From IMG/VR virus record IMGVR_UViG_3300012983_000033, positions 32,001 to 96,000 of that record: a stretch of DNA of 64,000 bases; one strand, written 5' to 3'. The stretch comes from a virus. Lineage: Duplodnaviria; Caudoviricetes. The notes beneath the pieces were generated by a model. That model had not been told where the DNA came from. It saw only the letters and a program-made list of their open reading frames with translations, and ran no database searches. The translations under genes were made by a program, and so were the position numbers. Below are positions 63,354-63,443 of the stretch, piece after piece (positions within the stretch are counted from its first letter, which is position 1; each line of letters opens with the position of its first letter).

Positions 63354-63443
63354 TGGCAGCCCCGTAGGGATTCGAACCCTAACTAACGCCCTCAGCAGGC
63401 CACAGATTTAGAGTCTGCTGTGCTACCATTACACCACGGGGCA
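63354..63443 (-). tRNA. Amber suppressor tRNA (anticodon CTA), Gln-type body with extra arm
   Basis: TGCCCCG acceptor, GCAGA-CTCTAAA-TCTGT anticodon arm, TAGGG-TTCGAAT-CCCTA, G73-CCA; D arm identical to tRNA-Gln(TTG). Confidence 0.9.

What the first reader, a model, noticed from the sequence alone, without database searches (positions are those of the whole stretch)
63354..63443. Amber suppressor tRNA-Gln carrying a 16-nt extra hairpin
Seen: anticodon CTA. The D arm TGGTGTAATGGTAGCACA and the variable-loop end TAGT are identical to the phage tRNA-Gln(TTG). It has an unpaired 1:72 and G73. It also has an insertion GGCCTGCTGAGGGCGT forming a GCCT/GGGC hairpin in the variable region. Established: tRNA-Gln normally has a short variable loop; long arms mark Leu/Ser/Tyr/Sec. 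Inference: the arm may be an identity element for a dedicated synthetase, aid competition with RF1, or be removed by processing as a timing control.
Basis: partly seen in the sequence, partly recalled or inferred. Interest (0 to 1): 0.78.

Follow-up and report, generated by a model that had tools for sequence, protein, structure and literature searches.

The report
Amber suppressor tRNA with spare glutamine-anticodon arm
This phage tRNA reads the stop codon UAG as glutamine, and its "extra hairpin" is a small second anticodon arm that still shows the normal glutamine anticodon (CUG), a design shared by many stop-codon-recoding phages that may explain how host enzymes load the right amino acid onto a stop-reading tRNA.

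Summary
Window 63354-63443 (minus strand) is a 90-nt tRNA(CUA) with encoded CCA, a U1:U72 mismatch, G73, a D arm identical to the phage's own tRNA-Gln(UUG), and a 16-nt insertion before the same 4-nt variable loop UAGU. The phage (complete, 139.7 kb, related to Bacillota phages) uses TAG as a sense codon in late genes. TAG sites align with Gln in a standard-code relative (8 of 19, P about 1e-7).

The inserted hairpin is a second anticodon-type arm whose 7-nt loop has CUG, the glutamine anticodon, at its centre. Searches that did not specify the arm found 81 distinct long tRNA(CUA) genes. About 69 have YUG in that loop, on a covarying stem. Three have CCA instead, with a Trp-type acceptor, and in one of those contigs TAG aligns with Trp. 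Long UGA suppressors carry a CCA arm.

Best reading: the spare arm gives the host's glutamine-charging enzyme the anticodon that the decoding arm has lost. This function is inferred, not shown. I found no paper describing the design. This scan has already reported it on other genomes. The phage encodes no GlnRS/GluRS or release factor.

The parts
63354..63443 (-). tRNA(CUA) gene, 90 nt with encoded CCA (63354-63356), discriminator G73 (63357) and a U1:U72 mismatch (63443 with 63358)
   Evidence: ARAGORN; Rfam RF00005 55.1 bits; sequence
63420..63434 (-). D arm GUGU-AAUGGUA-GCAC (tRNA positions 10-24), identical to that of the phage tRNA-Gln(UUG)
63402..63418 (-). First anticodon arm (ASL-1): 5-bp stem GCAGA/UCUGU and loop CUCUAAA; decoding anticodon CUA at 63409-63411
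   Evidence: covarying in 72 relatives
63388..63400 (-). Second arm (ASL-2): stem GCC/GGC and 7-nt loop UGCUGAG (or a 4-bp stem with U.G and a 5-nt loop); Gln anticodon triplet CUG at 63393-63395, followed by A
63382..63387 (-). Tail GU + UAGU. The last four nt equal the variable loop of the phage tRNA-Gln(UUG)
63365..63381 (-). T arm UAGGG-UUCGAAU-CCCUA
60817..60890 (-). Phage tRNA-Gln(UUG), the closest paralogue in the genome (A1:C72 mismatch, G73, loop UUUUGAU)
10931..12772 (-). Terminase large subunit with 2 in-frame TAG, both aligned with Gln in the standard-code relative L170: an example of a gene that needs this tRNA
12729..13724 (-). YonG_N-family gene with 5 in-frame TAG. The family column at the TAG of residue 260 is Gln in 120/120 homologues
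50114..51679 (-). 521-aa ORF that is open only if 11 TAG codons are read as sense

Best explanation
The gene encodes a working amber-suppressor tRNA that inserts glutamine at the in-frame UAG codons of the phage's late genes. It is built like the phage's tRNA-Gln but has two anticodon-type hairpins in a row. The first (loop CUCUAAA, anticodon CUA) follows the D arm and nucleotide 26 directly and decodes UAG on the ribosome. The second (loop UGCUGAG, triplet CUG followed by A) sits just before the normal 4-nt variable loop and the T arm. It presents the glutamine anticodon that the decoding arm has lost (G36 became A).

Host GlnRS reads the anticodon as a major identity element, and non-discriminating GluRS (which acts before GatCAB) also reads it. 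I therefore infer that the second arm, together with the open 1:72 pair and G73, keeps the tRNA a good substrate for the host's glutamine-charging route. Identity would then be read on one arm and decoding done by the other. One possible mechanism is that the second arm takes the anticodon-arm position while the enzyme is bound. On the ribosome it would stick out like a long variable arm.

Shown here: the tRNA itself, TAG = Gln, and the conservation, covariation and amino-acid-matched triplet of the second arm. Inferred: that a synthetase reads the second arm, and any swapping of the arms.
For: 1. The tRNA is real and Gln-like.
2. TAG is a sense codon in the portal, terminase, tape-measure and other late genes. 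At 19 TAG sites aligned to a standard-code syntenic relative, Gln occurs 8 times and no other residue more than twice. The background Gln frequency is 3.4%, giving P = 1e-7. One TAG falls in a column that is Gln in 120/120 homologues.
3. Patterns that left the arm unspecified found 81 distinct long tRNA(CUA) genes. When the register is chosen by pairing alone, the central loop triplet is CUG in 36, UUG in 7 and CCA in 3, against about 4 expected. About 69 have YUG in a loop of the form N-U-YUG-A-N.
4. On 49 distinct arms aligned by the loop only, the 5-pair helix has 77.6% of cells paired against 49.1% when shuffled (0/500). The covariation score is 0.673 against 0.188 shuffled, and at most 0.314 in slid registers. 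The two loop-proximal pairs form in 49/49 with CG, GC, AU, UA and UG.
5. The triplet matches the amino acid. Three tRNA(CUA) have loop CUCCAAA or CUCCAAC and a Trp-type acceptor (A1-U72, G73). In one of these contigs, L138, 5 of 6 TAG sites fall in columns that are Trp in 103-119 of 120 homologues.
6. Long UGA suppressors tRNA(UCA) with Trp-type acceptors carry a covarying 5-bp arm with loop CUCCAAA or GUCCAAA.
7. Leu-type class II tRNA(CUA) show no such loop. By general knowledge, LeuRS does not read the anticodon.
8. The tail after a 5-position second arm is 4 nt in 55/72 and 3 nt in 15/72, the length of a class I variable loop. The 5' linker varies from -2 to 6 nt.
9. The phage encodes no GlnRS/GluRS and no release factor.
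10. GlnRS identity lies in the anticodon (U35, G36), the acceptor stem and G73, and GlnRS can charge an amber tRNA-Ser body that has a long arm (review PMC9976931). Phage tRNA(CUA) inserted Gln in 28 of 29 cases in E. coli extract (bioRxiv 10.1101/2025.10.30.685624).
Against: There are no aminoacylation, tRNA-seq or structural data for any of these tRNAs.

GlnRS binds the inner face of the L with the variable region pointing away (general knowledge). An arm in the variable-arm position could therefore not reach the anticodon-binding domain of the same enzyme unless the arms rearrange.

In the window the second arm is a weak version. It has only 3 G-C pairs (plus U.G) and G instead of U at the U33-equivalent position, the only such case among 46 Gln-type arms.

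In a subset of relatives (L015, L017, L037, L085, L099, L105, L165) a register shifted by one nt pairs better and puts UGA, not CUG, at the loop centre.

Many phages also carry ordinary short tRNA(CUA) genes (16 loci have both kinds), so the arm is not obligatory.

The match between triplet and amino acid could partly reflect ancestry (duplication of the arm in a Gln or a Trp tRNA) rather than present function.

The host is unknown. Two Bacillota MAGs that hold such contigs lack a detectable GlnRS C-terminal domain but have GatB (the MAGs are incomplete and the link to a host is weak).

RNAalifold on a plain MAFFT alignment did not call the second helix.
Confidence: 0.6

Rival explanations
1. 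The second arm is a relic. The suppressor arose from a tRNA-Gln(CUG) by tandem duplication of the anticodon arm, and G36 changed to A in the first copy. The second copy survives only as a tolerated or structurally useful hairpin and is not read by any enzyme.
For: The typical loop of the second arm (CUCUGAA) differs from the decoding loop (CUCUAAA) by one base. The window's copy is shrunken, with a 3-bp stem and no U33-equivalent. Short suppressors without the arm exist, and phage tRNA(CUA) are charged with Gln in E. coli extract.
Against: Acceptor, D and T stems and the stem of the second arm have diverged and covary, yet YUG and the U before it stay nearly fixed in the loop. The same design recurs with CCA for Trp, in both amber and opal suppressors. 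A hairpin that is only structural would not need a 7-nt anticodon-type loop. This phage's own class II tRNAs have 3-4-nt loops in their variable arms.
Confidence: 0.15
2. The second arm is read by something other than the aminoacyl-tRNA synthetase. Candidates are a tRNA-modifying enzyme, GatCAB, a phage factor, or a host anticodon nuclease for which it would act as a decoy.
For: The loop is conserved in sequence. According to other notes of this scan, the phage carries RNA-repair genes near the tRNA cluster. I did not test this.
Against: No known reader of this kind explains why the triplet switches to CCA exactly where the acceptor stem is Trp-type and TAG or TGA means Trp. By general knowledge GatCAB reads the 1:72 pair and the D loop, not the anticodon.
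Confidence: 0.1
3. The tRNA is a dual decoder: either arm can enter the ribosomal A site, so it reads both UAG and CAG.
For: Relatives such as L018, L062, L101, L112 and L157 have a full 5-bp stem and a canonical 7-nt loop with a U33-equivalent. The tail length matches a normal variable loop. This phage has tRNA-Gln(UUG) but no tRNA-Gln(CUG).
Against: In the window the second arm has 3 pairs and G at the U33-equivalent position, which makes it unfit for decoding. Reading CAG as Gln gives no obvious benefit that would keep the arm in so many phages.
Confidence: 0.05
4. The long arm and G73 make it a serine (or other class II) acceptor, or the arm is cut out as a timing control.
For: The variable region is 20 nt and the discriminator is G73, both SerRS identity elements (review PMC7609411).
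Against: Of 19 TAG sites, Ser, Leu and Tyr align at 1, 1 and 0, against 8 for Gln. The D arm is the class I type of tRNA-Gln. The loop is conserved in sequence, unlike Ser arms. No processing signal was seen, no Rfam ribozyme lies next to the gene, and excision would not explain the conserved triplet.
Confidence: 0.03

Closest known systems
Phage-encoded amber suppressor tRNA-Sup(CUA) of TAG-to-Gln ('code 15') phages (crAss-like, Lak, Phass-1 and others; Borges et al. preprint 10.1101/2021.08.26.457843; PMC10607447)
   Same: The anticodon is CUA, the phage has in-frame TAG in late genes, TAG is read as Gln, and the phage encodes no synthetase. Phass-1 (OQ749652.1, 62445-62532) carries a tRNA of the same two-armed design.
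   Different: The papers annotate these genes only as tRNA-Sup-CTA. They do not mention the variable region or a second anticodon loop, and Borges et al. leave open how the suppressors are charged. Here the arm is described, shown to be conserved, and shown to match the amino acid.
supE-type suppressors (E. coli glnV44): tRNA-Gln(CUG) with anticodon changed to CUA
   Same: The change is the same single-base change, G36 to A, in a Gln anticodon loop (CUCUGAA to CUCUAAA), and the tRNA is charged by the host glutamine system.
   Different: supE has one anticodon arm and a short variable loop, and charging tolerates the changed anticodon. The phage tRNA keeps an extra, unmutated copy of the Gln loop.
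Class II tRNAs (Leu, Ser, Tyr, Sec), whose long variable arm is an identity element for SerRS
   Same: There is an extra helix between the anticodon arm and the T arm, and an extra arm serving as an identity element has a precedent (PMC7609411).
   Different: The D arm is class I type. The loop is 7 nt and anticodon-like rather than 3-5 nt. The tail before the T stem is 4-6 nt rather than 1-2 nt. The loop sequence is conserved, whereas SerRS reads the arm's orientation rather than its sequence. TAG is not Ser, Leu or Tyr here.
Anticodon mimics outside tRNAs: the E. coli thrS operator and the anticodon-like hairpins in mRNAs bound by their own synthetases; viral tRNA-like structures
   Same: A hairpin that copies the cognate anticodon loop is what the synthetase recognises (PMC9976931).
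   Different: Those elements regulate translation or tag viral RNAs. Here the mimic lies inside a decoding tRNA, next to a different, functional anticodon.

Membership tests
tRNA (Rfam RF00005) | Cloverleaf with a 7-bp acceptor stem, D arm, 5-bp anticodon stem with 7-nt loop, and T arm with a UUCRA loop; score above the gathering threshold | tested here: met
   55.1 bits against 29; ARAGORN; 6 of 7 acceptor pairs, with 1:72 being U:U; all four arms covary in 72 relatives
Phage amber suppressor of TAG-to-Gln (code 15) phages | CUA anticodon in a phage genome whose late genes carry in-frame TAG | tested here: met
   the genome is complete with direct terminal repeats
Phage amber suppressor of TAG-to-Gln (code 15) phages | TAG positions correspond to Gln in homologues that use the standard code | tested here: met
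   8 of 19 sites are Gln, P = 1e-7; one column is invariant Gln. Close database homologues had been called with TAG=Q and were not counted
Phage amber suppressor of TAG-to-Gln (code 15) phages | The tRNA is charged with Gln by a host enzyme | not testable with these tools
   The phage has no GlnRS/GluRS. The only experimental support is for other phage tRNA(CUA) in E. coli extract
tRNA-Gln identity set (E. coli GlnRS) | Weak or open 1:72 pair, G73 and G2-C71 | tested here: met
   U1:U72, G73 and G2-C71 read from the sequence. In the family, 1:72 is mostly U-A or a mismatch and position 73 is mostly G
tRNA-Gln identity set (E. coli GlnRS) | G3-C70 | tested here: not met
   C3-G70 here. The phage's own tRNA-Gln(UUG) has A3-U70, so the host's rule may differ from that of E. 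coli
tRNA-Gln identity set (E. coli GlnRS) | Anticodon YUG (U35, G36) followed by A37 | tested here: inconclusive
   Not met in the decoding arm (CUA). Met in the second arm (CUG followed by A). Whether the enzyme reads the second arm is not known
Class II tRNA (Leu/Ser/Tyr/Sec) | Variable region of 10 nt or more | tested here: met
   20 nt
Class II tRNA (Leu/Ser/Tyr/Sec) | Class II D arm, a small (3-5 nt) variable-arm loop, a 1-2-nt spacer before the T stem, and the matching amino acid | tested here: not met
   The D arm is identical to that of class I tRNA-Gln. The loop is 7 nt and anticodon-like. The tail is 6 nt here and 4 nt after a 5-position arm in 55/72 relatives. Ser, Leu and Tyr align at 1, 1 and 0 of 19 TAG sites
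tRNA-Pyl (ARAGORN's label) | Very short variable loop and compact D loop typical of tRNA-Pyl (from general knowledge), with PylRS present | tested here: not met
   The label follows from the anticodon alone. The variable region is 20 nt, the anticodon stem is 5 bp and the body is Gln-like. PylRS was not searched for
Two-armed suppressor tRNAs (provisional class of this scan) | A stop-reading first arm, then a second hairpin with a 7-nt loop that carries the sense anticodon of the inserted amino acid, a covarying stem and a 3-4-nt tail before the T arm | tested here: met
   The window's copy is a short-stem variant (3 G-C pairs, G at the U33-equivalent position)

The most novel reading that the evidence does not exclude
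Stop-codon-recoding phages use 'two-headed' tRNAs that separate identity from decoding. One anticodon arm (CUA or UCA) is read by the ribosome. A second arm keeps the sense anticodon (YUG for Gln, CCA for Trp) and is read by the host synthetase, perhaps by swapping into the anticodon-arm position on the enzyme. This would be a natural way round the rule that changing an anticodon changes a tRNA's identity, and it would answer the open question of how recoded phages get their suppressors charged by unmodified host enzymes.
Probability: 0.5. Interest if true: 0.9.

Novelty: new variant of a known kind. Interest (0 to 1): 0.8.

Why it matters
How phages that read TAG or TGA as sense codons get their suppressor tRNAs charged by host enzymes is stated as an open question in the main survey of recoded phages.

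GlnRS and TrpRS are synthetases that depend strongly on the anticodon, and Gln and Trp are the two amino acids to which phages reassign stop codons. A spare arm that keeps the cognate anticodon is a simple, testable answer. Deleting or mutating 13 nt and then measuring charging and suppression would decide it.

If it holds, it adds a new kind of tRNA identity element, an anticodon mimic inside a tRNA. It would let the amino acid meaning of a recoded stop be read directly from the tRNA gene, which here separated a TAG=Gln phage from a TAG=Trp phage. It would also give a natural template for engineering suppressor tRNAs that remain good substrates for anticodon-reading synthetases.

Tried and rejected
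1. Single-sequence folding. The MFE is -31.3 kcal/mol with a z-score of -0.44 against shuffles, which is uninformative. The five-arm cloverleaf is nearly as stable at -30.5.

2. Window-specific 6-nt complementarity (CAGCAG, tRNA positions 24-29, with CUGCUG, 46-51). The best fold that keeps it reaches only -20.1 kcal/mol and it is absent from relatives, so I rejected it.

3. RNAalifold on a plain MAFFT alignment of 72 full-length tRNAs. It recovered the four standard arms but not the second arm, because MAFFT shifts the register of the variable region between subfamilies. I used a loop-anchored alignment instead.

4. Choosing the hairpin register by pairing alone. This gave the sense triplet at the loop centre in 46 of 81 sequences. 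A subset prefers a register shifted by one nt, and that ambiguity remains.

5. blastn of the tRNA against GenBank phages. It found only a partial match to a mycobacteriophage tRNA-Glu.

6. Promoter scan. No sigma-70-like site lies on the minus strand near the gene, so the tRNA is probably co-transcribed with the tRNA cluster.

7. Host inference. Terminase relatives are Bacillota phages. Two MAGs that hold such contigs lack a GlnRS C-terminal domain and have GatB, but they are incomplete and the contigs are short. GlnRS and GluRS/GatCAB are both left open.

8. Close database homologues of the TAG-containing gene show Q at the TAG sites only because their genes were called with TAG=Q. I did not use them as evidence.

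9. Five literature searches and six papers read found no description of the arm.

Full report
**What is there.** ARAGORN finds 13 tRNA genes in the window, all on the minus strand. One of them is a 90-nt tRNA with anticodon CTA at 63354-63443. Its label "tRNA-Pyl" follows from the anticodon alone. Rfam's tRNA model scores it 55.1 bits against a threshold of 29, with a 17-nt insertion in the variable region and a non-standard 1:72 pair.

Reading the sequence gives this layout:
- acceptor UGCCCCG/CGGGGCU with U1:U72 unpaired, then G73 and an encoded CCA;
- D arm GUGU-AAUGGUA-GCAC;
- anticodon arm GCAGA-CUCUAAA-UCUGU;
- variable region GGCCUGCUGAGGGCGU followed by UAGU;
- T arm UAGGG-UUCGAAU-CCCUA.

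The phage's own tRNA-Gln(UUG) at 60817-60890 shares the 18-nt D-arm block and the UAGU variable loop. It is the closest paralogue among the genome's 30 tRNAs.

**The genome and its code.** The window is part of a complete 139,671-bp phage genome with direct terminal repeats. Reading TAG as sense joins many fragments into full genes:
- portal (2 TAG);
- large terminase (2);
- a YonG_N-family protein (5);
- tape measure (7);
- an HNH nuclease (5);
- a 521-aa ORF (11).

The terminase is closest to those of Bacillota phages: Geobacillus E3 at 44%, Enterococcus phages, SPbeta-like phages, and Phass-1 at 34%.

To find which amino acid TAG stands for, I aligned the window's ORFs, with X at each TAG, to the syntenic structural module of a relative whose genes are open under table 11 (L170). 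Of 19 aligned TAG sites, 8 are Gln and no other residue occurs more than twice. Gln makes up 3.4% of those proteins, so P = 1e-7. One TAG lies in a column that is Gln in all 120 homologues.

A caution applies. The closest database homologues show Q at these sites only because their genes were called with TAG=Q, so I did not count them.

The phage has no GlnRS/GluRS catalytic domain, no GlnRS anticodon-binding domain and no release-factor domain. Charging therefore depends on the host.

**What the extra hairpin is.** A search of IMG/VR that fixed only the D arm and the CUA loop returned five more tRNAs of 88-90 nt. Their arms read GCC-CUCUGAA-GGC, UUCC-CUUUGAA-GGAG and GCC-UUCUGAG-GGC. These are 7-nt loops with CUG or UUG, the two glutamine anticodons, at positions 34-36 of an anticodon loop. 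U precedes them and A follows, as in a real tRNA-Gln.

I then searched viral, genome and metagenome collections with a pattern that left the whole variable region free: TGGTA, 9-12 nt, CTCTAAA, 24-36 nt, GGTTCRANTCC. ARAGORN and a parser gave 173 tRNA(CUA) genes, 94 of them distinct and 81 with a long variable region. They fall into these groups:
- about 69 carry YUG in such a loop, mostly CUCUGAA or CUUUGAA;
- 3 carry CCA;
- 3 have a 6-nt loop CUGACA;
- 5 are ordinary Leu-type class II tRNAs with no anticodon-like loop;
- 1 has a tetraloop hairpin.

One subfamily has perfect 5-bp stems that change by full compensation: CACGG/CCGUG, CUACC/GGUAG, CCAGG/CCUGG, GGCAC/GUGUC and CACGC/GCGUG.

**Is the second helix real?** I aligned 49 distinct 17-mers by the loop motif only, so pairing played no part in the alignment. 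On that alignment the 5-pair helix has:
- 77.6% of cells paired, against 49.1% after shuffling (0 of 500 shuffles reach it);
- a covariation score of 0.673 against 0.188 shuffled, and at most 0.314 when the 3' strand is slid by 1-3 nt;
- the two pairs next to the loop formed in 49 of 49 sequences, with five pair types.

When I instead chose the hairpin register by pairing alone, the central triplet was CUG in 36 sequences, UUG in 7 and CCA in 3, out of 81. About 4 would be expected by chance. In a subset a register shifted by one nt pairs better, so the register is not certain everywhere.

In the Gln-type arms the U before the triplet is present in 44 of 46 and the A after it in 40 of 46, while the stem positions vary freely. 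The invariance of the U and G of YUG is partly built into my anchoring.

**The triplet follows the amino acid.** The three tRNA(CUA) with loop CUCCAAA or CUCCAAC have the bacterial Trp-type acceptor, AGGGG.../...CCCCU-G. In one of those contigs (L138) a GIY-YIG nuclease gene has six in-frame TAG. Five of them fall in columns that are Trp in 103-119 of 120 homologues. TAG therefore means Trp there.

The same arm-free pattern with the opal anticodon loop (CTTCAAA) found a dozen distinct long tRNA(UCA). They have Trp-type acceptors and a covarying 5-bp second arm with loop CUCCAAA or GUCCAAA.

Leu-type CUA tRNAs have no sense-anticodon loop. That fits, because LeuRS does not read the anticodon (general knowledge).

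The rule is that the second arm shows the sense anticodon of the amino acid assigned to the stop codon. It appears for the two amino acids whose synthetases depend heavily on the anticodon.

**Architecture.** The first arm directly follows the D arm and nucleotide 26. After a 5-position second arm, the tail is 4 nt in 55 of 72 sequences and 3 nt in 15, the length of a class I variable loop. The linker between the two arms ranges from -2 to 6 nt. In the window the tail's last four nt equal the variable loop of the phage tRNA-Gln.

The molecule is therefore best described as the 5' half of a tRNA-Gln, then a CUA arm, then a Gln-anticodon arm, then the normal variable loop and 3' half. It is not a class II tRNA. 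The D arm is class I, and the variable-arm loops of this phage's own Leu, Tyr and Ser tRNAs are 3-4 nt. The usual second-arm loop CUCUGAA differs from the decoding loop CUCUAAA by one base. This points to an origin by duplication of the arm of a tRNA-Gln(CUG), followed by the supE-type change.

**The window's copy.** It belongs to the subfamily whose D arm is identical to that of tRNA-Gln (L001-L006, L061, L111, L142, L149). An identical copy lies on a 2.9-kb metagenome contig, L084.

Its second arm is the weakest form. It has three G-C pairs (GCC/GGC) and loop UGCUGAG. The flanking bases have changed (C to U, U to G, A to G), but CUG followed by A is kept. It is the only Gln-type arm with G at the U33-equivalent position. 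U.G and G.A could close the loop further and leave CUG exposed. This resembles what I recall of the GlnRS-bound anticodon loop, but that is memory, not a test. The hairpin contributes about -6.5 kcal/mol.

**How it most likely works.** According to the review read, GlnRS identity lies in the anticodon (U35, G36), the 10-25 pair, the acceptor stem and G73. Mutations there cost up to 1e5-fold in activity. GlnRS can also charge an amber tRNA-Ser body that has a long arm.

A CUA anticodon lacks G36. I infer that the second arm restores the missing determinant for the host's glutamine-charging enzyme, while the open 1:72 pair and G73 supply the acceptor-end determinants.

The variable region points away from GlnRS in the normal complex (general knowledge). 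The fixed tail length also mimics a normal anticodon-arm context. One possibility is therefore that the second arm stacks in the anticodon-arm position on the enzyme and the first arm does so on the ribosome. This step is speculation.

The host may lack GlnRS.

**Rivals.**
- A functionless relic of the duplication. It is hard to square with the conserved loops on diverged, covarying stems and with the parallel Trp design.
- A different reader, such as a modification enzyme, GatCAB, a nuclease or a phage factor. It does not explain the switch of triplet with the amino acid.
- Dual decoding. It is unlikely for the window's 3-bp arm, which lacks a U33-equivalent.
- Serine charging or excision of the arm. 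It conflicts with Gln at the TAG sites and does not explain the loop.

**Comparison with what is known.** Phage tRNA-Sup(CUA) genes are well known. Phass-1 carries a two-armed one, annotated only as "tRNA-Sup-CTA". None of the following mentions a second anticodon-like loop:
- the Phass-1 paper;
- the survey of recoded phages;
- the theta-ribozyme paper;
- two reviews of unusual tRNAs and of tRNA identity;
- a 2025 preprint that tested many phage suppressors in E. coli extract.

The survey states that the charging mechanism is open. The 2025 preprint reports Gln at UAG for 28 of 29 phage tRNA(CUA) and Trp at UGA for 13 of 13 tRNA(UCA).

Within this scan the same design has already been reported on other genomes. 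I read those notes after reaching the same reading, and I tested their main claims again on my own data.

**Verdict.** The tRNA and the arm are real. The gene is a member of the known class of phage amber suppressors for Gln. Its architecture, a spare arm with the sense anticodon, appears to be undescribed in the literature I could search. The proposed function is well motivated but unproven.

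Noticed in passing
L138:5673-5767 (tRNA) and L138:6705-7517 (GIY-YIG gene); also L114:3299-3390 and L120:4088-4181: Three metagenome contigs carry a tRNA(CUA) with a Trp-type acceptor and a second arm with loop CUCCAAA or CUCCAAC. In L138 five of six in-frame TAG align with invariant Trp, so TAG is read as Trp there. The phage survey I read reports only TAG-to-Gln and TGA-to-Trp.
   Followed up: partly
L175, L178, L180, L182, L183, L189, L192, L193, L195, L198, L200, L204 (IMG/VR contigs): Long opal-suppressor tRNA(UCA) genes with Trp-type acceptors carry a covarying 5-bp second arm with the Trp anticodon loop (CUCCAAA or GUCCAAA).
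   Followed up: partly
L206 / L208 (Phass-1, OQ749652.1: 62445-62532 and 62539-62610): The published phage Phass-1 has a two-armed tRNA(CUA) next to a short one. Both are annotated only as tRNA-Sup-CTA. Sixteen of the fetched loci likewise hold a long and a short tRNA(CUA) together.
   Followed up: partly
Genome C1:101074-101149 and C1:102064-102140 (beyond the window's end): ARAGORN calls tRNA-Leu(UAA) and tRNA-Leu(CAA) of only 76-77 nt, that is, with short variable regions. Bacterial Leu tRNAs normally have a long arm.
   Followed up: no
Genome C1:101409-101485 (beyond the window's end): A tRNA with an 8-nt anticodon loop (ARAGORN anticodon 'caat').
   Followed up: no
L051, L064, L092: A variant of the two-armed tRNA(CUA) whose second arm has a 5-bp stem and a 6-nt loop CUGACA. 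CUGA is kept, but the loop is one nt short.
   Followed up: no
L094, L125, L135, L047, L140; L148: Other long tRNA(CUA) genes: Leu-type class II bodies (four of the five end with discriminator A) without an anticodon-like extra loop, which hints at TAG-to-Leu suppressors. One tRNA (L148) has a UNCG-type hairpin.
   Followed up: no
window 62543-63271 (-): A TAG-free ORF directly downstream of the suppressor tRNA gives weak HNH endonuclease matches, below the Pfam cut-offs.
   Followed up: partly
window 60922-61029 (-): A sub-threshold Rfam match to 'drum RNA' (31 bits against a gathering score of 43) lies between tRNA-Gln(UUG) and tRNA-Trp.
   Followed up: no
P0002-P0011 (database homologues of window 12729-13724): In the protein database, at least one close homologue from a recoded phage (P0007) was called with TAG=Q. 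The other close homologues show the same Q pattern at TAG sites, so these Q residues are not independent evidence for the code.
   Followed up: yes
L018/L026, L054, L062, L071, L101, L112, L115, L123, L157, L164: The subfamily with perfect 5-bp second arms has a conserved purine-rich 6-nt linker (AGGAAG or a close variant) between the two arms. One member lies on a 402-kb viral contig (L026).
   Followed up: no
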